DNA of 64,000 nucleotides from an uncultured Actinomycetota bacterium (GCA_963737525.1 CAVTTD010000034.1:13483-77482); one strand, 5' to 3'; positions 2,048 through 63,993 are shown, counted from the first letter of the stretch. Numbers and translations: made by a program. Notes: generated by a model from the letters alone, not told the origin.

Positions 2048-5000
2048 ATGGCGACCCTTCGTTTCCTGTTCAAGCGCTTCGTCGCCCAGCGGATGCTGGG
2101 TCTGGCCGTCGTGGTCACGCTGGCCTTCTCGGTCGGGGTGCTGGTCGCAGGCCCGATCTACGCGGAGGCGGCGCGGGAAGCGATCCTGTCGTCGGAGCTC
2201 ACCGGCGCTCCCCCCACGGTGCGCAACGCCCGGTTCCAGGTCTTCGGCGACGAGAGCTTCGATTGGACGACCGCCGACGGGGTGATCACGGACCGGGTGG
2301 ACGCCCTGCCCACGGACAAGCTCGTCCGGCAGGGACTCGGCACCGTGCGTCTCCTCTCGCCGGCCGGTCCTTCGGTCCCGCTCCTTGCCAGGGAAGGCGC
2401 CGGGGATCATCTCGAGATCCACGGTGAGCCTCCCGGCGCCGACGGCATCCTCATTCACGTGGCGATGGCCCGGACGCTCGGGATCCGTCGCGGCGACCGG
2501 ATCGCGATCATCGGACCGACGGGACGGGAGCTGAAGCTCACCGTCAGCGGCACCTACTCCACACCGGATCGAGGCGACGCGTTCTGGTTCGGTTCGCAGA
2601 GTCCGTTCCCGAACCGCACCGATGACACGGACTCGACCCGGCCTCAGCCGAGCATCGTCGACATCGGTACCCTCGTCCGAGCCACGCAGAGGCTGGAGCT
2701 GACCACTCAGTACTCGTGGGATGCCTACCTCGCCCTCACCGGTGTGCCGTTCGAGCGAGCCTCCGAGGTCCCGAACAACCTCCAGCGGGTTTTCACGAGC
2801 CTCCAGGACGAGGAGGGTCTCGACTCGGTCAGCCTGATCTCAGGACTCGGCACGCTCATGGACCTCGTCCGGCAGCGGGTCGCCGACCTGGCCGTGCCGA
2901 TCCTGCTCGTGGTGTTCCAGATCGGCGCCGTCACGCTCGCCGTCCTGGCCGGGGTCGGTGCCCTCGCGCTCACCCGGCAGGGATTCGAGCTCGCGGTTCT
3001 GCACAGCCGAGGATTCGGCCGAGGTGTCTTGCTGGCGGCGCAGGGCATCCAGGCGGTCTTCGCGGCGATCGTCGCGTTCCCGCTCGGCTTGCTCCTGGGG
3101 ATGGGGCTGGCAGCGCTCGCGAGCACCGCGAACGGACCGGACCTCCCAGGAGTGAGCTTCCCCATCCACTTGAACGCGACGGCCGCGTTGCTCGGGCTCG
3201 TCGCCGCCGTCGTCGGCGGCGTGATCCTCCTGGGACTCTCGGTCCCGTACGTGTCGCGGACGGTGCTCGAGGAGCGGCGGGCCGCGTCCCGGGAAGACCG
3301 TCCGCTCCTCGCGCGGGTGCCTGTCGAGCTGTTCGTCCTGCCGCTCGGCGTGTTCGCGTTCCTCCAGTTGCGGACCGGCACTCAGCCCCAAGCGGGATCC
3401 GGTGAGATCGACCCCCTCATCCTGGTCGCTCCCACCCTCCTCCTGTTCGGTGGATCGTTCCTCGCGCTCCGGCTCCTGCTCCTCGTGTTCCGAGGGCTCG
3501 ACTCCCGGATCGGACGATCACGGCGCCTGCCGAGGTACCTCGCGGGGAGACGGATCGGACGATCGCCGGGGACGGGGTTCGCCGCCGCCCTCCTCCTCCT
3601 GCTCTCGATGGGACTGCTCGTCGTGTCCACCTCGTACCGAGCCATCGTGCTGCGGAACCACCAGGACGCGGCGCACGCACAGGTGGGAGCGGACTGGCGC
3701 GTGAACGTCACGCCGCCCGAGAACGTCCTGTCGGTGATCCGACACATGCCCGAGGCGACGACACCGGTCGTTCGCACCGAGCCGCGCCTCGAGAGCGGGA
3801 CCTTCCAGCTGCCGCCCATCGCTCTCGGCATCGACCCCGCGACCTATCCTGCCGCCGGCTGGTGGCGAGAGGACTTCTCCGACGTCCCGCTGTCCGAGAT
3901 CCTCCCGCGGCTGGAGGCTCCCGCCTTCGGCATGGACCTGCCCGCCGCGACCAGTCAGCTGACGTTCGAGATGGACTCGGGCCGGGACGTGCGGCACCTG
4001 CAGGTGACGGCGACCGCCGTGGACGAGGGCGGGGTCGTCCACACCGCCCCCCTCCGGCCGGTCGAGGCGGGCCCCGCCCATTACGAGATGCCGATCGACG
4101 GTTCCGTCCGGTTGCTGTCGATCACGATCCACCGGACCTCGCTGGACTCACCCGATGAGGGAACCTTCGAGATCTCCTCGGTCGCCGCCGACGGGGCGCC
4201 GCTGTCGTTGTCGGACTGGGAGGCGCTCACCTGGCGCGGCAGCACCGGATCGGTCGAACCCGACGGATCCGGGGTCCGCTACGAGATGATCTCGGGAGCG
4301 TCCGACGTGATCGGCGGGATCGTGCCGCCATCGGACCCCCTCCCCGCGCTCGTCTCGCCCGGGATCGCCGCAGCCGGGGGACCTGTCTTCCCCGTGGCCC
4401 TGGGCGGGCAGGAAACGGAGCTCGATCCGGTCGCGGGCGCGCTCCAGTTCCCGTCGTTGATCCCAAACGCACCGTTCATCGTGGTGTCGGCCTCCGCACT
4501 CCTCGAGCGGGCCGCGGCCGTGCCCGAGCCGGGCCTCGTCCTGAACGAGGTCTGGGCCGAGGGCGAACGGAACCCGGTCCCGCTGCTCCGCGGCGACGGA
4601 TTCATCCAGGGGGACGTGGCGAGAACCGCCCCGATCGAGGGGTTCCTGGCGCAGCTGCCACAGAGCCTCGCCCTGGGGATGAACTTCGTCTCGGCGGCCG
4701 GTGGAGCCGGCCTCGTGGTGGTCGGGGTGGCGGCGGCGCTGTACTTCGCACAGCGCCGCCGCGACTACGAGTTCGCGGCACTCCGGGCGATGGGCTCCGC
4801 GTCCGGACAGATCGTCCGGACGCTCGCCCTCGAACAGGTGCTGCTCCTCGGATTCGCGGTCGTGGCGGGCCTCGGCCTGGGCTATCTCCTGCTTCGCTTG
4901 ATGATGCCGTACGTCGGACCGAGCCTCTCGGTGGCGTATCCGCCTCCGGTGTTCTTGATGGATTGGGTCTCGCTGGGGATCGCGCTCGCCGCCATCGTCG

Positions 5001-54038: not shown

Positions 54039-54959
54039 TTATCGCTCGGGCACGGTCGCCTCCGCCTCGCGGCGGAGGAGCTCCCGGAACGACGTGACGG
54101 CGATCTCGATCTGGGAGTGGTCGGGCTGCTGCGTCGTGATCCGCTGCAGCCAGATCCCGGGCTTCATCAGGCCCCGCATCACGAGCGACCCGGGGTGCTT
54201 CGCACCGAACCGGAGCGCCTCGTAGGAGATCGCGGCGATGATCGGGATCGCGATGACGCGGGAGACGATGCGCCACACGAGCGCCGGCGTACCGAACAGC
54301 GTGAACACGAAGATCGTGATGATCATCACGATGATCAGGAAGTTCGTGCCGCACCGGACGTGCTCCTTGGGGTATCGGTCGATCAGCTCGGGCTCCAGCT
54401 CCTCGCCGTGTTCGAACGCCGCGATCGTCTTGTGTTCGGCGCCGTGATACTCGAACACGCGGTGGATGTCCTTCGTCTTGCCGATCAGCCAGAGGTAGGC
54501 GACGAAGATCGCGACGCGGAACACGCCCTCGCCCATCAGCGTGAGGATCCCCGTGCTGCCCGTACGGTTCTCGAACCAGGCGAAGAGCGTGGTCGGTCCG
54601 ATGATGAAGATCCCGACGAAGAGCGCCAACGCGAGGGCGATCGACAAGGCGACCTGACGCGGGGTGAGCTTCTCCTCTTCTTCCAAGGACTGGTTGGCGG
54701 AGACCATCAACGCCCGCATGCCGATCGCGAGCGATTGACCGAGCACGATGATGCCGCGGAAGAACGGCTTCCCCAGGAGCGGGATGCGCAGGACGACGGA
54801 GTCGATCTCGTGCGACTCGACGTGGACCGTGCTGTCGGGCCGACGGACGGCGATCGCCCAGAAGCCGGCGCCGCGCATCATCACGCCCTCGACGACCGCC
54901 TGACCGCCGTAGAGGTGGGTGCGTGGGGACGCCGCTTTGGGGGCCGCTGCCTCCGCCAC
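54039..54959 (-). CDS. DUF1385 membrane protein
   Basis: GGQAVVEGVMM, FEYHGAEHK, HVRCGTNF; usual position between rpmE and prfA. Confidence 0.92.
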   Translation of the reverse strand: MAEAAAPKAASPRTHLYGGQAVVEGVMMRGAGFWAIAVRRPDSTVHVESHEIDSVVLRIPLLGKPFFRGIIVLGQSLAIGMRALMVSANQSLEEEEKLTPRQVALSIALALALFVGIFIIGPTTLFAWFENRTGSTGILTLMGEGVFRVAIFVAYLWLIGKTKDIHRVFEYHGAEHKTIAAFEHGEELEPELIDRYPKEHVRCGTNFLIIVMIITIFVFTLFGTPALVWRIVSRVIAIPIIAAISYEALRFGAKHPGSLVMRGLMKPGIWLQRITTQQPDHSQIEIAVTSFRELLRREAEATVPER

Positions 54960-54966
54960 GGGTCGG

Positions 54967-55194
54967 TTAGCCCTGCTGTGCCTGCTGGGCCGCCTGCGTC
55001 TTCGCGTACCGCCGCTGGAACCGCTCGACCCGGCCCCCCGCGTCCACGAACTTCTGCTTGCCCGTGTAGAAGGGATGGCAGTTCGAGCAGAGCTCAGCGC
55101 GGATCTCACTCACGGTGGAACGGGTCTGGAACGTATTGCCGCACGAGCAGTGCACGTTGGCGATCTGGTATTCGGGATGGATGCCCTGTTTCAT
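54967..55194 (-). CDS. rpmE: 50S ribosomal protein L31 (Zn-binding type)
   Basis: [23 protein letters not shown]. Confidence 0.98.
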
Positions 55195-55253
55195 GTCGTC
55201 TCCTCTTCGGCCACCCAGGGTAACCGAGGCCGTCGACCGTTGGTCAGCGGCCC

Positions 55254-56936
55254 CTACCCTCCGGACGGCGCCTTCGCGATCTCCTTCAGGAACTGCTCGT
55301 TGGACTTCGTCGCACGGATCTTGTCGACGAGCAGCTCGAGCGCCGCGCCCACATCGAGCGCGTGGAGCACCCGTCGCAGCTTGATCACGAGGGCGAGCTC
55401 CTCGGGCGGCAGGAGCAGCTCCTCCTTCCGGGTGCTCGAGGCGTCCACGTTGATCGCCGGGAACAGGCGCTTCTCTGAGAGTGAACGATCGAGACGGAGC
55501 TCCATGTTCCCGGTGCCCTTGAACTCCTCGAAGATCGCGTCGTCCATCCGGGAGCCGGTTTCGACGAGCGCGCTGGCGATGATCGTGAGCGACCCGCCTT
55601 CCTCGATGTTCCTCGCCGCGCCGAAGAACCGCCGCGGGGGGTAGAGGGCGCCCGAGTCGATCCCGCCGGACAGGATCTTGCCCGAGGAAGGCGCAGCCAG
55701 GTTGTAGGCCCGCGACAACCGGGTGATCGAGTCGAGGATGATCGCGACGTCCCTGCCGGATTCGGCGAGACGCCGGGCCCGCTCCAAGACGAGCTCCGTG
55801 ACCTGGATGTGCTGGTCGGTGGGCTTATCGAACGTCGAATAGACGACCTCGGCGGCCTCGACGGTTCGTTGCCAGTCCGTGACCTCCTCCGGCCGCTCAT
55901 CGACGAGGAGCACGATCACGTGCGTGTCGGGACTCGAGCTGATGATCCCGTTCGCGATCTGCTTGAGGACCGTGGTCTTCCCGGCCTTGGGCGGGGACAC
56001 GACCATCCCTCGCTGGCCTTTCCCGATCGGGGCGATCATGTCGATGATCCGCTCGGTCACGGCCGCCGGGCCGGATTCGAGCCGGAACCGATCGTCGGGG
56101 AACAGCGGTGTGAGCTTGTCGAAGTTCTTGCGCTCCGTGACGTCGTCGACGTTGATGTCGTTGACCTTCTCCACCTCGAGGAGTGCCCAGTACTTCTCGT
56201 TGTCCTTGGGTTGGCGCACCTTGCCCGTCACGACATCGCCCTTCCGGAGCTGGTGCTTGCGCACCTGGGACATCGAGACGTAGATGTCGTCGGGACCCGG
56301 CAGGTAGCCGGAGGTGCGCATGAAGCCGTATCCGTCCGGGAGCAGGTCGAGGATGCCGGACGCGGAGGGAGCGGTCTTCAGCGCCTCGATGCGCTCCTGC
56401 TCCTCGCGTTCCCGGCGCTCTTCTCGCTGCTGCCGCCGCTCCTCGCGGGTAGGCCGCCGACGCCGGTTGCGTGGGTCGTTCCGGTCGCCGTCGCCGCCGC
56501 GGTCACCCCCCTGGGGACGTGCGTCCCCGGGGCCCTGACGGTCGTCCGGGCGGCGATCCTCACCGCCCGGGCGACGGTCCTCCTCGGGCCGGCGGTCGCG
56601 GGTCGGCGCGTCGGAGGGCGACCGTTGGTCGGTGTCGCTCGTGGCGCTCTCGGGTCCGGACCCGGCCGCGGCGACGTCGCCCGTTGCGTCGTCGCTCGCG
56701 ACGGCGCCATCGGCCTCCGTCGACACCGCGGCGATCGCCACGGAGCTCTCACGAGATGAGGACGTCGTCGCTTCGCCGTTCCCCGGTCGTTCGCCGTTGG
56801 ACGACGCCTCGACGATCGCGTCGATGAGTCCTGCCTTGCGCAGACGCTGGGATCCTTCGATCCCCATCGTCTGCGCGATCTGCTGCAGCTCCGGGAGGAG
56901 CTTCCCCTCCAACGTGCTGCGATCGATCGTTTCCAT
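55254..56936 (-). CDS. rho: transcription termination factor Rho with N-terminal insertion
   Basis: [28 protein letters not shown]; R/D/G-rich insertion. Confidence 0.98.
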
Positions 56937-56971
56937 CAGTGCCCTGCCTCTCTTTCTGCTGCTTTCGGCTG

Positions 56972-57646
56972 CTAGGGCGTGTCGTTGTGCATGGAGGGCT
57001 GTTCGCCCTGGAGCTTCCGCCAGTCGGCGAGGAATCGCTCCAATCCTGAGTCGGTCAGTGGGTGCTTCACGAGCTTCGTGAAGACGTCGTACGGCATCGT
57101 AGCGATGTCCGCGCCCGCGAGCGCGGCGTCCACGACGTGCATCGGATGACGCAATGACGCGGCCAGCACGTTCGAGGCGTAGCCCTGCACGGCGTAGATC
57201 TCGCAGATGTCGTGGAGGAGCTTCATCCCGTCGGCTCCGATGTCGTCCAGCCGGCCGAGGAACGGTGAGACGCAGTACGCCCCGATCTCGGCGGCGAGGA
57301 TCGCCTGCGTCGCGGAGAAGACCAGGGTCACGTTGGTCCGGATCCCTTCGCTCGTCAGTCGCTTGCCGGTCTCCAGGCCGGCGGGGGTCATCGGCACCTT
57401 GACCACCGCGTTCGGCGCCATCCCCGCGAGGCGAAGCCCTTCCTCGTACATCGGGCCGGCCTCGAGCTCCGTGGTCTCCAGGGAGATGTCGCCGTCGACC
57501 TCCGCGAGGATCTCCTTCCACACGGCCTCGGGGTCGTCGTTCTCCTTCGCGACCAGCGAAGGGTTGGTGGTGACGCCGGAGAGCACGCCCCAGCGATTGA
57601 TCTCGCGGATCTCCTCGATGTCTGCGGTGTCCAGGAACAGTCTCAC
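56972..57646 (-). CDS. tal: transaldolase (TalC/FSA family)
   Basis: FLDTA, GVTTNPSL, VKVP, SPFLGRLDD, HPLTDSGL. Confidence 0.93.
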   Translation of the reverse strand: MRLFLDTADIEEIREINRWGVLSGVTTNPSLVAKENDDPEAVWKEILAEVDGDISLETTELEAGPMYEEGLRLAGMAPNAVVKVPMTPAGLETGKRLTSEGIRTNVTLVFSATQAILAAEIGAYCVSPFLGRLDDIGADGMKLLHDICEIYAVQGYASNVLAASLRHPMHVVDAALAGADIATMPYDVFTKLVKHPLTDSGLERFLADWRKLQGEQPSMHNDTP

Positions 57647-58587
57647 GCCGTCCTCCCCTGTTGTCCGTGTTGCTCTGCTTGCTGCGCCGCCCGCGCGGTG
57701 GCGCGTTCCATCACCAGGTCCAGGACGGCGGAGATCGCCTGGTCGAAGCTGTGGTTCGGAACGATCGGCACTCCGTGGGACAGTGCCTGGCTCTTGATGT
57801 AGCGCTGGAGCTTCCTGATGTTCTCGAAGTTCTGGGCGTAGCGCTCTGCCGGACGGACGCCCGTCTCGCGCCTCGCGAAGTGGTTCAGGTGCCGGCCTTC
57901 GTCATCGACCTCGAGCACCAAGGGTACGGCAACGATGCGATCTCCGAACGGGTCCACGTCGAAGAACCCCGGGACGACGTGGACACCTTCGATGACGATG
58001 CTGGTGCCCTCGGTCGCCGATCGCTTGATCATCGCCTCGATACCCACCGACACGGCCAGCGTCTGCTCCCGGAATCCGGCGACGAGCGCGTCGGAGCGGC
58101 GCGTGGGCTCGCGGACGGCTCGATCGGTCTGGAAGGACGACACGTGCAGCGCCGGCATCAGTTCGGCCGACAGCATCGCGCGCATGACCTCGCGGATGGC
58201 GGCGTCGGTCGCGACCACCCGCACGATCCCCAACCGGTGTGCGAGGTGCGTGGCGATCGTCGACTTCCCGACCCCCACGGCGCCCCCGATCAGGATCACC
58301 AGCGGCACATCGAGCCGCTGCACCTCCTGCCAGCGCGTGAAGTTGGTCGCGTAGCGATCCCCCGCCAGCTCCCGGATGACGTCGAGCGCGATCTGCGACA
58401 GCTCGAGGCTGCTGATCGAGGAACGGCCTTCGTCCAGAAGTCGGACCTCGATCGTCTCCGCCACCTCGTATGCGCGATAGGCGGAGAGCCCCGTGACCAT
58501 GACTTCCGAAGCCATCAGCCCCTTGGAGTAGGGCAGGCCGGGATCCTGGTCGGAGATCGTGATGTGTGGGTTCTTGTCTCTGGTCAT
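57643..58587 (-). CDS. pgk2: 2-phosphoglycerate kinase (ATP-cone + P-loop)
   Basis: LPYSKGLMA ATP-cone start, ILIGGAVGVGKST, TD..IREVMR, LHVSSF, IEGVHVVPG, NFENIRKLQ. Confidence 0.9.
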   Translation of the reverse strand: MTRDKNPHITISDQDPGLPYSKGLMASEVMVTGLSAYRAYEVAETIEVRLLDEGRSSISSLELSQIALDVIRELAGDRYATNFTRWQEVQRLDVPLVILIGGAVGVGKSTIATHLAHRLGIVRVVATDAAIREVMRAMLSAELMPALHVSSFQTDRAVREPTRRSDALVAGFREQTLAVSVGIEAMIKRSATEGTSIVIEGVHVVPGFFDVDPFGDRIVAVPLVLEVDDEGRHLNHFARRETGVRPAERYAQNFENIRKLQRYIKSQALSHGVPIVPNHSFDQAISAVLDLVMERATARAAQQAEQHGQQGRTA

Positions 58588-59918
58588 GAGCGTTCTTCAG
58601 CCCGGCCGAGCGCGGTGTCGATCGCGCCGCCGAGCGCGGTGTCGAGGTCTACGGATCCCTCCACGGCCTCTGCGCGGTTGTCCACGAACACGACCTCCGC
58701 CCCTCGGTCGAGGGCTCTGGCGATCGCCGTATCGACGGCCGCCGCCTTCAGCTCCGTGAGGAGGACGTCGTATCCCTGGACGGCATCGAGGTCTTCGACC
58801 AGGCCGGCGCGATCCGCCAGCCGAGCGCTCCATCCCACGACCCTGCACCCATGGTCGGCCTCGAGGCGTCGGATCAGCCCCTCGACGACCGCAGGAGGAG
58901 CAGTCGTGGTGAAGAACACTTCCTTGCCCCGGATATCTTCCAGCGGTACCGGAACGAAGTCCGTGACGATGAACGCTGCATCGTCCAGGTAACGCCGAAC
59001 AGGGGAACGGAGCTCGGAAAGGTTTTCGAACCCGGATGGGTCGCTAGCCATGGTAGCAACCACCAGGTCCGACCGCAAGAGTCGGTAGGGGCCGAGGTAT
59101 CCACCCAGGTACTCGGGAGGCGCCGTGGCGGGCACCACGAGGATGCCTGCGTCCCAGGGGATCGGTGGGATCGCCGCGCCGCTCCCCTCCACGATCACGA
59201 GCCCGGGGCTGAGGGAGGCCGCCAGCTCGGCGGCCTCCCGGACGTTGGAGGTGTAGGGCGCGCCGGCGAGCCCGCCGCCGGCGCGCCGGGCGCCCACGGT
59301 GGTGACGCCGGTGGTGACGGCGTCCTCCAGGTAGTCCGAAGCGGCGTGGGAGCCCTCGGCGGCCAGCCGCACGAGGTGGTCGAGGTCGACCGAGCCCGCC
59401 ATCGCCAGGGTGGGCTCGGGCGGCCCGCCGCGGCCCATCGCGACGATGACCGGCTGCAGACCGCGGCGGGCCGCCAGTCGGGCCACCGCACCGGCGATCG
59501 CGGTCTTCCCCGTCCGCTTCCCGGTGCCGATGACCGCGAGCGTGGGCATCGCCAGCGGCGGGCCGAGCGCCGGTGGCTCGAATCGGAAGTCGGGGCCCAC
59601 GTACGGGATGCCCGCCACCAGAGCGACGGCCGCCATCTCCATCCGCTCCCGGTACCCCAGGACGGGCTCGTCGGAGAGGTCGAGGACGACCTCCGGAGAG
59701 CGTTCGGCGATGGCGGCGCGCAGCGCGTGCATCGGGTCCCCGGCGACAACGAGGAGGGGCACGCCGAGGTCGGGCGGCTCGCCGCCGGGAGCGAGCTTCT
59801 CGGTCCCGCCGACGAGGAGCGCGGCCACGATCTCGTGGCCGCGCTCCCGCGCCACTTCCAAAGCGGCGCGTGTGACCGGCGGGTAGTGCTCGCCGTCCAC
59901 GAGGACGAGCGTTCGCAT
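58584..59918 (-). CDS. cpgS: cyclic 2,3-diphosphoglycerate synthetase
   Basis: LVDGEHYPPV, GGTEK, DLSDEPVL, GTGKRTGKTA, MGRGGP, HAASDYLEDA, RRAGGGLAG, EGSGAAIPP, TELKAAAVD; overlaps pgk2. Confidence 0.92.
   Translation of the reverse strand: MRTLVLVDGEHYPPVTRAALEVARERGHEIVAALLVGGTEKLAPGGEPPDLGVPLLVVAGDPMHALRAAIAERSPEVVLDLSDEPVLGYRERMEMAAVALVAGIPYVGPDFRFEPPALGPPLAMPTLAVIGTGKRTGKTAIAGAVARLAARRGLQPVIVAMGRGGPPEPTLAMAGSVDLDHLVRLAAEGSHAASDYLEDAVTTGVTTVGARRAGGGLAGAPYTSNVREAAELAASLSPGLVIVEGSGAAIPPIPWDAGILVVPATAPPEYLGGYLGPYRLLRSDLVVATMASDPSGFENLSELRSPVRRYLDDAAFIVTDFVPVPLEDIRGKEVFFTTTAPPAVVEGLIRRLEADHGCRVVGWSARLADRAGLVEDLDAVQGYDVLLTELKAAAVDTAIARALDRGAEVVFVDNRAEAVEGSVDLDTALGGAIDTALGRAEERS
59050..59078 (-). 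promoter_or_regulatory. putative internal sigma70 promoter inside cpgS
   Basis: TTGCGG-N17-TACCAT at the point where cpgS codons switch to A/T-ending. Confidence 0.45.
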
Positions 59919-59961
59919 GTGGTCTCCTTGCCGGGCCGGATGGAGTTGGGGTTCGCCGCGG

Positions 59962-60765
59962 TCAGTCGGCGGGAGGTTGGCCGGACACCTGCGCCGACTC
60001 CTGCACCAGGCTTTCACCTTCGCGCTGCATCTGGGTTCCGGTCGCGATCGCGACCTGCGCCATCTGCTGTCGCTCGCCGAACGGGAACTTCCGGAAGATC
60101 GTGACCTCCCCCGCCTCGATCTCCAGCACGTTGTAGCAGGGCTTCGTGTGCCCCCGCACGCGAAGGGACGAACACGTGCCCGCGCTCGCGAGGTACATGT
60201 CCTCGAGCCGCCACACGTAGGGGACATGCTTGTGGCCGGCGAGGACCACGTGCACGCCGGCGTGCACGAGGACCTCGAGGAGGTCTCCGGCGTCCATCAC
60301 CGTGCTTCGCTCGCGTCCGGTCCCCGGGATCGGGATCAGATGATGGTGCAGGACGAACACCTTGAGGTCCGCGGGATCGGCGAACTGCTCCGTGATCCAC
60401 GCGTAATGGCTCCGTCCCACCATCCCCTCGTTCAGGTCGGGTTCGCTGGAATCGACGCCGACGATCCGGATTCCCTCGACGTCCACGGACCAATTCCGAG
60501 CGCCGATCAGCTCTTCGAAGTGCAGGTACCCGACGTTCCGCGAGTCGTGGTTGCCGGGGATCGTGTGCAACGGCGCCTCGATCCGCTCGGCGTAGGAGAG
60601 CCAGGCTTGGTACTCCTGCCGGTACCCGTCCGTCGTCAGGTCCCCACTGCAGATCACCGCATCGGGTTGCAATCCATTGATCTCCTCGATCACCCGATGG
60701 AGCAGGTTCGGCACGAAGTGGGGGGAACCGACGTGCGGATCTGAGATGTGGGCGATCGTGACCAC
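59962..60765 (-). CDS. calcineurin-like metallophosphoesterase (CpdA/Icc-like)
   Basis: SDPH, SGDLT, PGNHD, LHHH, GHKH; TACACT 6 nt before GTG. Confidence 0.93.
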   Translation of the reverse strand: MVTIAHISDPHVGSPHFVPNLLHRVIEEINGLQPDAVICSGDLTTDGYRQEYQAWLSYAERIEAPLHTIPGNHDSRNVGYLHFEELIGARNWSVDVEGIRIVGVDSSEPDLNEGMVGRSHYAWITEQFADPADLKVFVLHHHLIPIPGTGRERSTVMDAGDLLEVLVHAGVHVVLAGHKHVPYVWRLEDMYLASAGTCSSLRVRGHTKPCYNVLEIEAGEVTIFRKFPFGERQQMAQVAIATGTQMQREGESLVQESAQVSGQPPAD

Positions 60766-60844
60766 GTCGGCAGTGTAGGGGGCGGCGCCATCCGTCGACG
60801 CGCGTCCACCGAAGCGACGAGGCGGCGTGGGACGATATCGCCCC

Positions 60845-62010
60845 GTGACCGTCCTGGACGTGGTCCTCATCGGGTTGCTCCTGTTGTCGGCGTGGGGCGG
60901 CTATCGACGCGGAGCCATGCTCCAGGTGGCCGGGCTCCTTGGGCTCGGGGTCGGGTTCGTCGTGGGCGCGTGGCTCGCGCCACACACGGCCGACCTCGTC
61001 CGGTCCGACCCGGCGAAGGCGGGAGTGGCGCTCGGCACGGTCCTGCTCCTGGGCGCGATCGGCGATGCGCTGGGGTCCGTGGTCGGGGCTCAAGCTCAGG
61101 AAGCGCACCCTCGGAACGCGCTTCAAGGTGGCGGACGCGGTGGGTGGGTCCGCGCTCTCGGCGGGCGCTCTGGTGCTCGCGATCTGGTTCCTCGGCCTCA
61201 ACCTCGCAGCCGGGCCCTTCCCCTCCATCGCCCGCTCCCTCCAGCATTCCGCCGTCGTCCGCGTCGTGGATGCGGCGCTTCCCCCGCCGCCGTCACTCGC
61301 CGCGCAGATCGGGAACGTGCTGGACCTGATCGGGTTCCCGGACGTCTTCTCGGGGCTGCCGCCGCTACCGGCGGAGCCCGTCCCGCAGCCCGCGCGAGGA
61401 CTCGCCGCCCGAGCAGCCCGGGCGGCGCGCCCCTCGGTGGTGCTGATCGCCGGACCCGCGTGCGATGGGATCCTCCAGGGCACCGGGGTCGTGGTGGAGG
61501 ACGATCTCGTCCTCACGAACGCCCACGTCGATCGCCGGCGGCAGCCCGAGGGTCGAATGGGGAGGGAAGACCTTCACCGCGGTGCCGGTGCTCTTCGACC
61601 GAGATATGGACGCGGCGCTCCTTCGGGTCGACGGTCTGGACGCCCCGCCGCTCACGCTCCTGTCGCGAGAAGTGGACCGAGGGGCGGGTGGGGCCGTGCT
61701 CGGGTACCCGCACGGGCGATACACGGAGCTCCGTGCCGCGGCCCGTCGGGCGCTGGACGCCGTCGGTCGGGACATCTACTCCGAGGACCAGGTGCGTCGC
61801 CGGATCTACGAGCTGCAGGTGACGGTGAAGCCGGGCAACAGCGGCGGACCGTTCGTGCTGCCCGGCGGGAAGCTCGCGGGCCTGATCTTCGGAGCGTCCA
61901 TCACGAACGGGGACCTGGGCTATGCGCTCACGTCACCCGAGCTGATCCCGTTGGTCGATCGGGCGGCGGCCCGTACCGACGCAGTCGGGACGGGCCGCTG
62001 CGTCCGCTGA
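60845..62010 (+). CDS. MarP-like membrane serine protease (CvpA-like TM + trypsin domain; frameshifted)
   Basis: LDVVLIG...GGYRRG TM domain; TNAHV, DAALL, GNSGGP triad. Confidence 0.88.
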
Positions 62011-62014
62011 GGGT

Positions 62015-62912
62015 TCAGTCTTCGATCGCGACCTCGACGCCCTTCGCATTGACGCCCGGCCGGATCGCGCGCCAGCCGTCCGGGAGGTCACCGATCGTGC
62101 TTCCCTCGCGTTCGAAGGCCAGGAGCGAAGGACCCGCTCCGGAGACACAAGACGGGACCTGCCGGCGCTGTCGCAACTCGTGAAGCAGACCTTTGGCCTC
62201 AGGGATCAGTTCGAGGCGTGCATCTTCGTGGAGCCGATCGAAGAGCGCCATGTGCAGAAGCTCGGGGTCTCGAGTGAAGGCGATCGCCGCCAGTGAGGCG
62301 TGGCTCACGTTGAACACCGCATCGCGACGAGAGACCTCCTCCGTCAGAGCCCTTCGGGCTTCTGCGGTTGACAACCTGAGTCGATCGGGAACGAGGACGA
62401 CAGGATCGAGATCGGGGTGCGGATCGAGTCGATGCACGAATCCGGTCCGCGACGATCGTGAATCCCCCGTAGACCGCCGCGGCTGCGTTGTCGGGATGGC
62501 CCTCGATCGAGGCCGCGTACCCGAAGATGGGATACGGGTCGTCCGGCGTCGCGCTGGTCGCGGACTCCCCGAGCAGCGCGTTGGCAAGGGCGACACCCGC
62601 GACAGCCGCGGCCGACGAGGAGCCCAGCCCGCGTTCAAGCGGTATCCGATTGACGCCGTGGAGCGAGAACGGCGGGAGCTTCGCGTGCGGATGGGATCCG
62701 CGCTGTTGCTCGAGGGTATGCGCGATCGCGCGGCTCACCATGTCGGAACCGTCGGTCGGGAGCTCGTCGGCCCCCTCCCCTTCCCACGTGACGCCGGGTT
62801 CGACCTCGGTGTCGACGGTCACCTCGTTGCACAGATCGAGCGCGAGCCCGAAACAATCGAACCCGGGACCGAGGTTCGCCGACGTGGCCGGCACCCGGAC
62901 GGTGATGCGCAC
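62015..62912 (-). CDS. thrB: homoserine kinase (frameshifted)
   Basis: [36 protein letters not shown]. Confidence 0.94.
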
Positions 62913-63993
62913 CTACAGCCCCAGCTCGGCGGCGACCACGGCAGGGTCGGCCGGCACGGTCTCGGGCCGCGCCGCCCCGGAGATCGCCCACTCCGGATCC
63001 TTCAGCCCGTGTCCGGTCAGGACGCACACCACGGTCGCGTCGGCCGCGAGCTCGCCCTCGGCGTGCAGGTGCAGCAGCCCGGCGACGCTCGCGGCCGACG
63101 CCGGCTCCGCGAACAGCCCCTCCCGAGCCACGCGCCGGTACGCCGCCAGGATCTCCCGGTCGGTCACGGCCAGGATCGCACCCTCGGACTCCTTCGCCGC
63201 CGCGACCGCCTTCTCCCACGACGCCGGGTTCCCGATCCGGATCGCGGTCGCGATCGTCTGCGGGTCCTTGACCGGCTCCCCGAGCACGATCGGTGCCGCA
63301 CCCTGAGCCTGGAAGCCGAAGAGTCGCGGTGGTTCGTGGATCAGTCCGGCCTCCAGGTACTCGGTGTAGCCGAGCCAGTGGCTCGAGATGTTGCCGGCGT
63401 TGCCCGACCGGCACGAGGTGGAGATCGGGCGCGCGGTCGAGCGTGTCGCAGATCTCGAACGCCGCGGTCTTCTGTCCCTCGAGCCGGTAGGGGTTCACGC
63501 TGTTCACCAGCGTCACGGGGTAGCGGTCCGCGAGACCCTTCGCCAGTTCCAGCGATGCGTCGAAGTTGCCGTCGACCTCGAGCACCCGGGCGCCGTGCAC
63601 GAGCGTCTGCGCCATCTTGCCAAGCGCGATCTTTCCTTTCGGAACGAGCACCGCACACGTGAGGCCGGCTTTCGCCGCGTACGCCGCCGCGCTCGCGCTC
63701 GTGTTGCCCGTGGACGCGCATACGACGGCCTTCGCGCCCTCCTCGAGCGCCTTCGAGATCGCGAGCGTCATCCCACGGTCCTTGAAGGACCCGGTGGGGT
63801 TCGCGCCGTCGTACTTGAGCCAGCACGTCGCAGCCGGTCTCGGCCGACAGGACCTCCGATCGGACCAGAGGGGTCCCGCCTTCACAGAGGGTGACCACGG
63901 GTGTGTCGGCCGAGACCGGCAACCGCGCCCGGTACTCCTCGATGATCCCGCGCCACTGGGGCGCCCCGGACCCGGTGCCTCCGCGGAGGTCAT
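62913..63993 (-). CDS. thrC: threonine synthase (frameshifted)
   Basis: [43 protein letters not shown]. Confidence 0.95.

What the first reader, a model, noticed from the sequence alone, without database searches (positions are those of the whole stretch)
57643..60765. Archaeal-type cyclic 2,3-diphosphoglycerate (cDPG) gene cluster in an actinobacterium
Seen: three co-oriented genes, a metallophosphoesterase, cDPG synthetase and 2-phosphoglycerate kinase. All are intact, and cpgS/pgk2 overlap by ATGA. Established: 2PGK and cDPGS form the two-step route 2-PG to 2,3-DPG to cDPG, a compatible solute and possible phosphate/energy store characterised in methanogens (Methanothermus, Methanothermobacter, Methanopyrus). 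I recall cpgS homologues being annotated in a few bacteria such as Rubrobacter, but I know of no characterised bacterial pathway. Inference: this bacterium makes cDPG and probably also turns it over, as a stress protectant or phosphoryl reserve.
Basis: partly seen in the sequence, partly recalled or inferred. Interest (0 to 1): 0.88.

Follow-up and report, generated by a model that had tools for sequence, protein, structure and literature searches.

The report
Bacterial cyclic-diphosphoglycerate operon beside rho
An uncultured actinobacterium carries intact, tightly coupled genes for the two enzymes that methanogenic archaea use to make the solute cyclic 2,3-diphosphoglycerate, led by a conserved phosphoesterase; the block is old, widespread and already machine-annotated in this bacterial phylum, yet nobody has shown that any bacterium makes the compound.

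Summary
On the minus strand lie a metallophosphoesterase (59962-60765), a cDPG synthetase homologue (58584-59918) and a 2-phosphoglycerate kinase homologue (57643-58587, ATGA overlap).

CpgS matches the solved Methanothermus fervidus enzyme over its full length (E 9e-92). Ten ligand or catalytic residues named in that structure paper are invariant in 93 of 93 actinobacterial copies.

"Archaeal-type" and "a few bacteria" mislead. CpgS, 2PGK and the phosphoesterase each occur in about 227-229 of 401 genomes sampled across the phylum, with the same family pattern. The five-gene order recurs in 20 further families, so this is an old, vertically kept operon, not a recent transfer. Public pipelines already name it.

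No held paper reports cDPG or its enzymes in a bacterium. The distant homologue arginine synthetase (ArcE) is an unlikely rival.

cDPG synthesis here remains an inference (about 0.6). The phosphoesterase as turnover enzyme is a weaker one.

This scan has already reported the same module at least ten times on other genomes. It is an interesting, untested variant, and this window adds only another member.

The parts
59962..60765 (-). Metallophosphoesterase (267 aa, GTG start), first gene of the unit. Candidate hydrolase of cDPG or 2,3-DPG.
   Evidence: PF00149 at E 1.5e-18. Nearest solved relatives are Rv0805 and GpdQ, E about 1e-13. All five MPE motifs are present and no membrane helix is predicted. 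It lies next to cpgS in 78/80 and 17/20 related loci. Its distribution across families matches that of CpgS.
58584..59918 (-). Cyclic 2,3-diphosphoglycerate synthetase homologue (CpgS, 444 aa).
   Evidence: PDB 8ORK/8ORU at E 9.1e-92, full length. Carries Pfam PF27272 CpgS_N. Ten ligand residues are invariant in 93/93 copies.
57643..58587 (-). 2-phosphoglycerate kinase homologue (314 aa). Its start overlaps the cpgS stop (ATGA, 58584-58587).
   Evidence: NF003259 at E 1.9e-83, profile positions 5-302 of 306, 280 bits against a cut-off of 343. Adjacent to cpgS in 79/80 and 19/20 loci. Found in 227/401 phylum genomes.
56972..57646 (-). Fructose-6-phosphate aldolase/transaldolase (Fsa/TalC type, 224 aa). 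Its GTG start overlaps the 2PGK stop (GTGA, 57643-57646).
   Evidence: TIGR00875 at 273.6 bits, above the cut-off of 245.95. PF00923. Present after 2PGK in 78/80 and 17/20 loci.
55254..56936 (-). Transcription termination factor Rho (about 560 aa from the start I chose), the co-oriented downstream neighbour.
   Evidence: Translation. Found in the same place in 72/80 and 20/20 related loci. The start codon is my inference from where the conserved N-terminus begins.
60766..60826 (.). 61-base divergent intergenic region between the MPE and the CvpA-protease gene. It must hold the unit's promoter.
   Evidence: Coordinates. No sigma-70-like consensus was found. No terminator-like site lies on the minus strand between 55000 and 61500.

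Best explanation
The window holds a bacterial three-gene module for cyclic 2,3-diphosphoglycerate.

- The 2PGK homologue phosphorylates 2-phosphoglycerate with ATP to 2,3-diphosphoglycerate.
- The CpgS homologue uses a second ATP to close the two phosphates into the cyclic pyrophosphate cDPG. Its active site is built across a dimer, as in the M. fervidus enzyme.
- The metallophosphoesterase that leads the unit most likely opens the ring again or dephosphorylates 2,3-DPG, so that the pool can be drawn down.

The three genes are translationally coupled or closely spaced, and they run on into fsa and rho. The module is an ancient, vertically inherited feature of a large part of Actinomycetota, not a recent archaeal import.

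Its carriers are mostly not thermophiles. The likely role is therefore a phosphate, carbon or energy reserve and/or a general stress solute, rather than thermoprotection.

Shown: gene integrity, homology, residue conservation, synteny, shared distribution across genomes, and presence in RNA-library assemblies.

Inferred: the substrates and product, the MPE's reaction, and the physiological role.
For: 1. CpgS aligns over its full length with the crystallised, assayed M. fervidus enzyme: E 9.1e-92 and 311 bits to 8ORK/8ORU, E 3.5e-92 to 9SXB.

2. De Rose et al. 2023 (PMC10690619, section 8 read) name E45 and K46 from the partner protomer, K145, R146, K149 and T150 in the P-loop, and D208, T353, E404 and K406. 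These correspond to window residues E40, K41, K134, R135, K138, T139, D195, T339, E389 and K391. All are invariant in 93 of 93 sequences, the window plus 92 locus-derived copies.

3. The protein carries PF27272 CpgS_N, the N-terminal domain the structure paper found unique.

4. 2PGK covers positions 5-302 of the 306-position 2PGK model at E 1.9e-83. Its start overlaps the cpgS stop.

5. Synteny in 80 named Actinomycetota MAG loci: MPE 78, CpgS 80, 2PGK 79, Fsa 78, Rho 72. All misses lie at contig ends. In 20 genomes of 20 other families: MPE 17, 2PGK 19, Fsa 17, Rho 20.

6. Shared distribution: CpgS 229/401, 2PGK 227/401, MPE 227/401. Ten named families (84 genomes) have none of the three. One 92%-complete genome of the window's own family lacks all three.

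7. Independent arrangements exist. An archaeal-type contig with a Cdc6/Orc1 neighbour has cpgS-2PGK-MPE in another order, and its MPE scores E 1e-109 against the operon-type MPE profile. Three contigs have 2PGK upstream of cpgS.

8. Contigs assembled from RNA libraries of four studies cover the operon at 90-99% identity. They bridge cpgS/2PGK in two studies, and 2PGK/fsa and MPE/cpgS in one study each.

9. The MPE has all catalytic motifs. Its nearest solved relatives are phosphodiesterases.
Against: - No bacterial enzyme of this module has been assayed, and no bacterium is reported to contain cDPG. The structure paper's abstract states that cDPG is found exclusively in hyperthermophilic methanogens.
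- 2PGK scores 280 bits, below NCBIfam's equivalog cut-off of 343. The same model also matches Thermus, Deinococcus, Haloferax and Sulfolobus control genomes, so the family is wider than cDPG producers.
- E305 of the M. fervidus enzyme, an adenosine contact, is not conserved. It is S, with a neighbouring D, in the alignment. P335 could not be mapped.
- The only biochemically described cDPG hydrolase was membrane-bound (Roberts 2005 review, PMC1224877, passages read). This MPE has no predicted membrane helix.
- In 49 of 80 metagenome loci whose CpgS is nearest the M. fervidus type, neither MPE nor 2PGK is adjacent; 28 of these 49 have at least 1.5 kb on both sides. The MPE is therefore not a universal partner.
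- RNA-library contigs cannot prove transcription or a single transcript.
Confidence: 0.6

Rival explanations
1. Same folds, different chemistry. The bacterial pair acts on a related phospho-acid. Alternatively it stops at 2,3-DPG, for example as a cofactor or regulator, and the MPE removes it, so that cDPG itself is not accumulated.
For: - 2PGK is below the curated equivalog cut-off.
- The 2PGK family also holds enzymes with other substrates, such as the mevalonate-3-phosphate 5-kinase model NF008996, which it matches weakly.
- No cDPG is reported from bacteria in any held paper.
- One large family (f19) keeps MPE-CpgS next to GlpX instead of 2PGK. There its 2PGK is more divergent, E about 1e-45.
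Against: Every residue that contacts 2,3-DPG, Mg or the phosphates in the M. fervidus complex is invariant in 93/93 copies. CpgS, which would be pointless if the route stopped at 2,3-DPG, is kept with 2PGK in 227-229 of 401 genomes.
Confidence: 0.22
2. The CpgS-like protein is an arginine synthetase (ArcE). This ATP-forming arginine/citrulline enzyme was recently found to be a distant homologue of cDPG synthetase and to occur in bacteria, Actinomycetota included.
For: Michimori et al. 2024 (PMC11032458; abstract and passages read) state that ArcE homologues show low similarity to cDPGS homologues and occur in Actinomycetota (Intrasporangium).
Against: - The window protein is about 45% identical over its full length to the assayed cDPGS, whereas ArcE similarity to cDPGS is described as low.
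- It keeps the 2,3-DPG ligands and the CpgS_N domain.
- It is translationally coupled to 2PGK.
- No ornithine carbamoyltransferase or carbamate kinase gene lies in the unit.
- In the tree it sits in one continuous family with P0148, which scores 442 bits to 8ORK.
- No ArcE sequence could be brought in for a direct test.
Confidence: 0.03
3. The cluster is a recent horizontal acquisition from archaea, an 'archaeal-type' island.
For: The characterised enzymes are archaeal. Local GC rises to 0.74 within cpgS.
Against: - The same five-gene order next to rho is found in 20 further families and in 38 of 41 close relatives.
- The window's CpgS nests deep inside actinobacterial sequences.
- The archaeal-labelled representatives (Thermococcus, Asgard) and the M. 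fervidus-like P0148 lie in the other half of the tree.
- GC of 0.66-0.74 is within the window's range.
Confidence: 0.03

Closest known systems
cDPG biosynthesis of Methanothermus fervidus: 2-phosphoglycerate kinase plus cyclic 2,3-diphosphoglycerate synthetase (PDB 8ORK apo; 8ORU with ADP/Mg/2,3-DPG; De Rose et al. 2023, PMC10690619)
   Same: - Full-length homology of CpgS, E 9e-92.
- CpgS_N domain, P-loop GTGKRxGKT and all ten mapped ligand residues.
- A full-length 2PGK homologue.
   Different: - The host is a bacterium from a non-thermal setting.
- The genes are fused into one unit with a metallophosphoesterase, fsa and rho.
- 2PGK is below the equivalog cut-off.
- Most loci with M. fervidus-like CpgS have cpgS standing alone.
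- Activity is untested.
Membrane-bound cDPG hydrolase activity of Methanothermobacter thermautotrophicus (van Alebeek 1994, as cited in Roberts 2005, PMC1224877; I recall no gene assigned to it)
   Same: It would catalyse the reaction I propose for the MPE, cDPG to 2,3-DPG. The MPE superfamily includes enzymes that cleave substituted pyrophosphates (LpxG matched weakly) and phosphodiesters (Rv0805, GpdQ).
   Different: That activity was membrane-bound and inhibited by K+ and Pi. The window's MPE has no predicted membrane helix. No sequence exists for comparison.
Arginine synthetase ArcE (TK2200) of Thermococcus kodakarensis (Michimori et al. 2024, PMC11032458)
   Same: Distant homologue of cDPGS with a P-loop core. 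Found in bacteria, Actinomycetota included.
   Different: ArcE has only low similarity to cDPGS. It associates with arcB/arcC, not with 2PGK. The window protein keeps the 2,3-DPG ligands.
Class III cyclic-nucleotide phosphodiesterase Rv0805 and glycerophosphodiesterase GpdQ (PDB 2HY1, 3IB7, 2ZO9, 2DXL)
   Same: Nearest solved relatives of the MPE, with the same metal-binding motifs.
   Different: E is only about 1e-13. The operon-type MPE forms its own tight group: E 1e-109 to 1e-129 to its own profile, and E 1e-60 to 1e-139 across the phylum.

Membership tests
Cyclic 2,3-diphosphoglycerate synthetase (CpgS) | Full-length sequence homology to the assayed and crystallised M. fervidus enzyme | tested here: met
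   8ORK/8ORU at E 9.1e-92, query residues 3-436 against chain residues 7-452.
Cyclic 2,3-diphosphoglycerate synthetase (CpgS) | N-terminal CpgS_N domain (PF27272), with no structural relatives outside the family | tested here: met
   One search lists PF27272.1 for the window's own protein (P0001). One search names it CpgS_N. The local Pfam copy lacks the model.
Cyclic 2,3-diphosphoglycerate synthetase (CpgS) | Walker A GxxGxGK[T/S] carrying K145/R146, plus the 2,3-DPG, Mg and phosphate ligands E45, K46, K149, T150, D208, T353, E404 and K406 | tested here: met
   all ten are invariant in 93/93 sequences. The numbering was mapped from the alignment and the text.
Cyclic 2,3-diphosphoglycerate synthetase (CpgS) | Adenosine contacts E305 and P335 | tested here: inconclusive
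   The E305 position is S, with D beside it, in the window. It is also not kept in 9SXB. P335 could not be mapped to a proline by my count.
Cyclic 2,3-diphosphoglycerate synthetase (CpgS) | Catalyses 2,3-DPG + ATP to cDPG + ADP + Pi | not testable with these tools
   Needs an enzyme assay.
2-phosphoglycerate kinase (NF003259 / PRK04220) | Score above the curated equivalog cut-off | tested here: not met
   280.3 bits against a cut-off of 343. The match itself is end to end (positions 5-302 of 306, E 1.9e-83). I therefore call it a 2PGK-family homologue, not a proven equivalog.
2-phosphoglycerate kinase (NF003259 / PRK04220) | P-loop kinase core and genomic coupling to cpgS | tested here: met
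   The P-loop GGAVGVGKST is in the translation. ATGA overlap. Adjacent in 79/80 and 19/20 loci.
2-phosphoglycerate kinase (NF003259 / PRK04220) | N-terminal ATP-cone-type domain, seen in an archaeal-contig homologue | tested here: inconclusive
   Pfam ATP-cone matches the L169 homologue at E 8e-08. It does not match the window protein even at E 10. The N-terminal 90 residues are nevertheless covered by the NF003259 alignment.
Calcineurin-like metallophosphoesterase | Five metal-binding motifs (DxH, GD, GNH[DE], H, GHxH) | tested here: met
   DPH9, GD41, GNHD71, HH140, GHKH177. PF00149 at E 1.5e-18.
cDPG hydrolase (biochemical activity of M. thermautotrophicus) | Membrane-bound, inhibited by K+ and Pi, converts cDPG to 2,3-DPG | tested here: not met
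   No membrane helix is predicted (maximum 19-residue hydropathy 1.42). Activity is untestable here. I therefore propose a similar reaction, not membership.
Arginine synthetase ArcE | Neighbourhood or co-occurrence with arcB/arcC, and clustering with TK2200 rather than cDPGS | tested here: inconclusive
   No arcB or arcC lies in the unit, and similarity to cDPGS is high. No ArcE sequence or model was available for a direct comparison.

The most novel reading that the evidence does not exclude
Cyclic 2,3-diphosphoglycerate, held in print to be exclusive to hyperthermophilic methanogens, is in fact a common metabolite of mesophilic soil and water Actinomycetota. There it would serve as a phosphagen-like phosphate and energy reserve. 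The conserved operon-leading metallophosphoesterase would be the long-sought cDPG hydrolase, whose gene has not been identified in any organism. The same orthologue sits beside cpgS-2PGK on at least one archaeal contig.
Probability: 0.35. Interest if true: 0.75.

Novelty: new variant of a known kind. Interest (0 to 1): 0.5.

Why it matters
If the inference holds, an 'archaea-only, heat-protection' compound is made by more than half of the sampled lineages of a major bacterial phylum living at ordinary temperatures. That would change what cDPG is thought to be for: a phosphate, carbon or energy reserve, or a stress solute. It would add an unmeasured organic pyrophosphate pool to soil phosphorus biology.

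It would also give biotechnology many non-thermophilic enzyme sources and a candidate gene for cDPG breakdown. The test is simple: two or three recombinant proteins, or 31P-NMR of a cultured carrier.

Two things weigh against this. The genes are already named this way by annotation pipelines. This scan has reported the same module at least ten times before, so this window adds a member, not a discovery.

Tried and rejected
- Pfam and NCBIfam scans of CpgS gave nothing at E 0.001. At E 10 they gave only chance P-loop matches. The local Pfam copy lacks PF27272, so this says nothing against the family.
- The promoter scan found 0 sites. The 3 terminator-like sites all lie on the plus strand, so this gives no information on transcript ends.
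- The whole-word paper search for 'cpgS' was swamped by CpG papers.
- Matussek 1998 (PMC107676) is not held.
- Names from the listing of cluster members were sparse. No representative could be tied by name to a methanogen. The place of the M. fervidus enzyme in the tree is inferred only from P0148's 442 bits to 8ORK. P0149 scored 401 bits.
- The tree is a quick LG+G4 search with SH-aLRT support only. Thirty of 83 inner branches are unresolved and the root is at the midpoint. I draw no conclusion on the direction of any inter-domain transfer, nor on whether Actinomycetota form one clade. They fall in two places.
- No ArcE sequence could be obtained with the tools, so the ArcE rival was not tested by a tree.
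- Bins without cover in the RNA-library runs are not evidence of anything.
- The nearby-place look-up in earlier findings returned nothing.
- Complex prediction, structure prediction and fold search were not used. The solved homologue made a model unnecessary, and an enzyme-substrate question does not suit a complex job.


Full report
**What is there.**
On the minus strand of the window lie five co-oriented open frames.

| Gene | Coordinates | Length | Note |
|---|---|---|---|
| Metallophosphoesterase (MPE) | 59962-60765 | 267 aa | GTG start |
| CpgS homologue | 58584-59918 | 444 aa | ATG start, AAGGAG upstream |
| 2PGK homologue | 57643-58587 | 314 aa | overlaps cpgS stop |
| Fsa/transaldolase | 56972-57646 | 224 aa | overlaps 2PGK stop |
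| Rho | 55254 to about 56936 | about 560 aa | start inferred by me |

- The cpgS stop and the 2PGK start overlap as ATGA (58584-58587).
- The 2PGK stop and the fsa start overlap as GTGA (57643-57646).
- MPE and cpgS are 43 bases apart.
- No terminator-like site lies on the minus strand in 55000-61500, and no sigma-70 consensus was found.
- Upstream, 61 bases away, a CvpA plus trypsin-like protease gene runs the other way. The unit therefore begins with the MPE.

**What the proteins are.**
*CpgS.*
- It matches the solved 'cyclic 2,3-diphosphoglycerate synthetase' chains 8ORK/8ORU of Methanothermus fervidus at E 9.1e-92 over residues 3-436. It matches 9SXB at E 3.5e-92.
- The public collection's precomputed Pfam for the window's own protein is PF27272, which the Atlas names CpgS_N. 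The local Pfam and NCBIfam copies have no model for it.
- From section 8 of De Rose et al. 2023 (PMC10690619, read) I took the residues that hold 2,3-DPG, Mg and the nucleotide.
- Ten of them (E45, K46, K145, R146, K149, T150, D208, T353, E404, K406) map to window residues E40, K41, K134, R135, K138, T139, D195, T339, E389 and K391.
- All ten are invariant in 93 of 93 sequences, the window plus 92 copies taken from 100 related loci. Eight loci with under 80% coverage were left out.
- E305 is not kept, and I could not map P335.

*2PGK.*
- It aligns end to end with NCBIfam NF003259 '2-phosphoglycerate kinase' at E 1.9e-83.
- Its 280 bits are below the curated 343.
- That model also matches Thermus, Deinococcus, Haloferax and Sulfolobus control genomes. 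On its own the kinase is therefore not diagnostic.

*MPE.*
- It has all five metal-binding motifs and no membrane helix.
- Its nearest solved relatives are the phosphodiesterases Rv0805 and GpdQ at E about 1e-13.

**How widespread it is.**
The window is part of a 1.88-Mb, 59%-complete MAG.
- CpgS is found in 38 of 41 close relatives.
- At E 1e-20 or better it is found in 229 of 401 genomes drawn evenly from the phylum, and in 209 of 367 high-quality ones.
- 2PGK at E 1e-30 or better is in 227 of 401. The MPE at E 1e-40 or better is in 227 of 401.
- The three share the same family pattern. Ten named families (f14, f15, f17, f20, f22, f24, f27, f28, f29, f32; 84 genomes) have none of the three.
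- Families f9, f16, f19, f31 and f33 have them in all or nearly all genomes.
- One 92%-complete genome of the window's own family (G343) lacks all three.
- These tallies include up to 14 genomes flagged unpublished. No sequence from those is used here.
- In genome contigs, at least 438 stretches encode a relative. The best 80 are nearly all titled Actinomycetota MAGs.
- JGI and NCBI already name these proteins 'cyclic 2,3-diphosphoglycerate synthetase'.

**Synteny.**

| Set of loci | MPE | CpgS | 2PGK | Fsa | Rho |
|---|---|---|---|---|---|
| 80 named loci | 78 | 80 | 79 | 78 | 72 |
| 20 genomes of 20 other families (CpgS 40-54% identical) | 17 | 20 | 19 | 17 | 20 |

- In both sets the genes keep the same order and strand.
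- Every miss in the 80 named loci lies where the held DNA ends.
- In one family (f19, locus L099) a GlpX fructose-bisphosphatase sits between cpgS and rho in place of 2PGK and fsa. A more divergent 2PGK lies elsewhere in those genomes, E about 1e-45.
- This is the signature of an old, vertically kept core operon, not of an island.

**Beyond the phylum.**
- A search of 1.84 billion representatives gave 258 clusters at E 1e-30 or better, 680 at 1e-10 and 1038 at 1e-3.
- I built a quick tree of 87 rows: 68 full-length representatives of the 150 listed, the window, and 18 locus copies. The rest were fragments or over-long and were left out.
- The tree puts the window deep inside actinobacterial sequences.
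- The other half of the midpoint-rooted tree holds clusters named from Bipolaricaulota, Cloacimonadota, Eremiobacterota, Thermococcus paralvinellae and Asgard archaea.
- That half also holds P0148, which scores 442 bits to 8ORK against the window's 311. A small actinobacterial clade sits there too.
- Deep branches are short and unresolved, so I draw no direction of transfer.
- A profile of that other half pulled 80 metagenome loci. Profiles built from the actinobacterial MPE and 2PGK were run against them:

| Neighbours of cpgS | Loci (of 80) |
|---|---|
| MPE only | 18 |
| MPE and 2PGK | 10 |
| 2PGK only | 3 |
| Neither | 49 |

- Of the 49 with neither, 28 have at least 1.5 kb on both sides and 40 have GC of 50% or less.
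- One contig with a Cdc6/Orc1 neighbour, hence archaeal in type, carries cpgS, an overlapping 2PGK with an ATP-cone, and then an MPE that scores E 1e-109 to the operon-type profile. This is an independent arrangement of the same three genes.

**Expression.**
- Contigs assembled from four RNA libraries of four studies (labelled soil, rhizosphere, soil, freshwater sediment) lie on the operon at 90-99% identity.
- Pieces bridge cpgS/2PGK in two studies: X15 record 5 (1075 bases) and X20 record 29 (632 bases).
- Pieces bridge 2PGK/fsa (X15 record 4) and MPE/cpgS (X15 record 7) in one study.
- Such contigs show presence in RNA libraries of close relatives. They do not show strand, a single transcript or freedom from DNA carry-over.

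**Literature.**
- Full-text searches for the enzyme and compound names returned no paper on cDPG or its enzymes in a bacterium. The searches covered synthetase/synthase, cDPG, cDPGS, bisphospho spellings, 2-phosphoglycerate kinase, and combinations with Actinobacteria.
- The 2023 structure paper's abstract says the compound is found exclusively in hyperthermophilic methanogens.
- One search surfaced an important rival. Michimori et al. 2024 (PMC11032458; abstract and passages read) showed that ArcE, a distant homologue of cDPGS found also in Actinomycetota, is an arginine synthetase.
- The window protein is far closer to cDPGS. It keeps the 2,3-DPG ligands and CpgS_N, is coupled to 2PGK, and has no arcB/arcC neighbours. 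I put this rival at about 3%.
- Roberts 2005 (PMC1224877, passages read) records two points. The M. fervidus synthetase is reversible. A membrane-bound cDPG hydrolase inhibited by K+ and Pi exists in M. thermautotrophicus. I recall no gene assigned to it.

**Mechanism and verdict.**
- The best reading (about 0.6) is a bacterial cDPG module. 2PGK makes 2,3-DPG from 2-PG. CpgS, as a dimer, closes it to cDPG at the cost of a second ATP. The MPE probably reopens or dephosphorylates it.
- The MPE step (about 0.4 on its own) rests on shared distribution, adjacency and the superfamily's chemistry. The enzyme is soluble, unlike the described archaeal activity.
- The carriers come from ordinary-temperature settings. 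A reserve or general stress role is therefore more likely than thermoprotection; this is inference.
- The main rival (about 0.2) is that the bacterial pair makes something related, or stops at 2,3-DPG.
- A recent archaeal transfer is contradicted by synteny.

**Relation to earlier work of this scan.**
Look-ups by words and by sequence returned ten earlier reports of the same module on other genomes. They reached the same conclusions: old, widespread, auto-annotated, partnered with a phosphoesterase, untested. I formed my reading before seeing them, and my tests agree with them.

- the three-way family-level distribution of CpgS, 2PGK and the MPE;
- the archaeal-type contig with the same MPE orthologue;
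- the stand-alone state of most M. fervidus-like loci;
- the RNA-library contigs;
- the explicit ArcE rival.

The window is one more member of an interesting but still untested variant of a known pathway.

Noticed in passing
window 60827-62183 (+): The divergent CvpA (colicin V production) plus trypsin-like protease gene is split between two reading frames in the window (60827.. and 60939-62183, change near 61075-61100). In relatives it is one 400-407 aa frame (L017 3902-5104, L052 3877-5100). This is either a frameshift or an assembly indel.
   Followed up: partly
window 62015-62912 (-): A GHMP-kinase gene (homoserine-kinase-like; Pfam on the L013 copy) is split at about 62447 into two frames (62199-62912 and 62015-62638). 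In L013 it is a single 298-aa frame (3008-3904). A PALP (threonine-synthase-like) frame lies upstream at 62635-63993.
   Followed up: partly
L169 4939-9103: A metagenome contig with a Cdc6/Orc1 gene, hence archaeal in type, carries cpgS, an overlapping 2PGK homologue with an ATP-cone, and a 518-aa frame with two Metallophos stretches. That frame scores E 1e-109 to the actinobacterial operon-type MPE profile.
   Followed up: partly
L099 5802-6803 (-): In family f19 (complete genomes of about 3 Mb) a class II fructose-1,6-bisphosphatase (GlpX, E 1.6e-105) sits between cpgS and rho in place of 2PGK and fsa. The 2PGK homologue of these genomes is more divergent (E about 1e-45) and lies elsewhere.
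   Followed up: partly
L115 6442-8085 (+): A stand-alone, low-GC cpgS is followed directly by a cofactor-independent phosphoglycerate mutase, the enzyme that supplies 2-PG from 3-PG.
   Followed up: no
L079 (record titled Candidatus Velamenicoccus archaeovorus): This contig carries the complete actinobacterial block MPE-cpgS-2PGK-fsa-rho at 57-80% identity to the window, and its CpgS groups with Actinomycetota in the tree. The record's Omnitrophota label may be a binning error.
   Followed up: no
window 54039-55109 (-): A DUF1385 gene lies downstream of rho on the same strand.
   Followed up: no
window 55254-57521 (-): The Rho frame stays open about 195 codons upstream of the conserved N-terminus, across fsa in another frame. 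Rho itself has a long Arg/Asp/Gly/Pro-rich insert after its N-terminal domain. I recall such inserts as common in Actinomycetota; this was not tested here.
   Followed up: no
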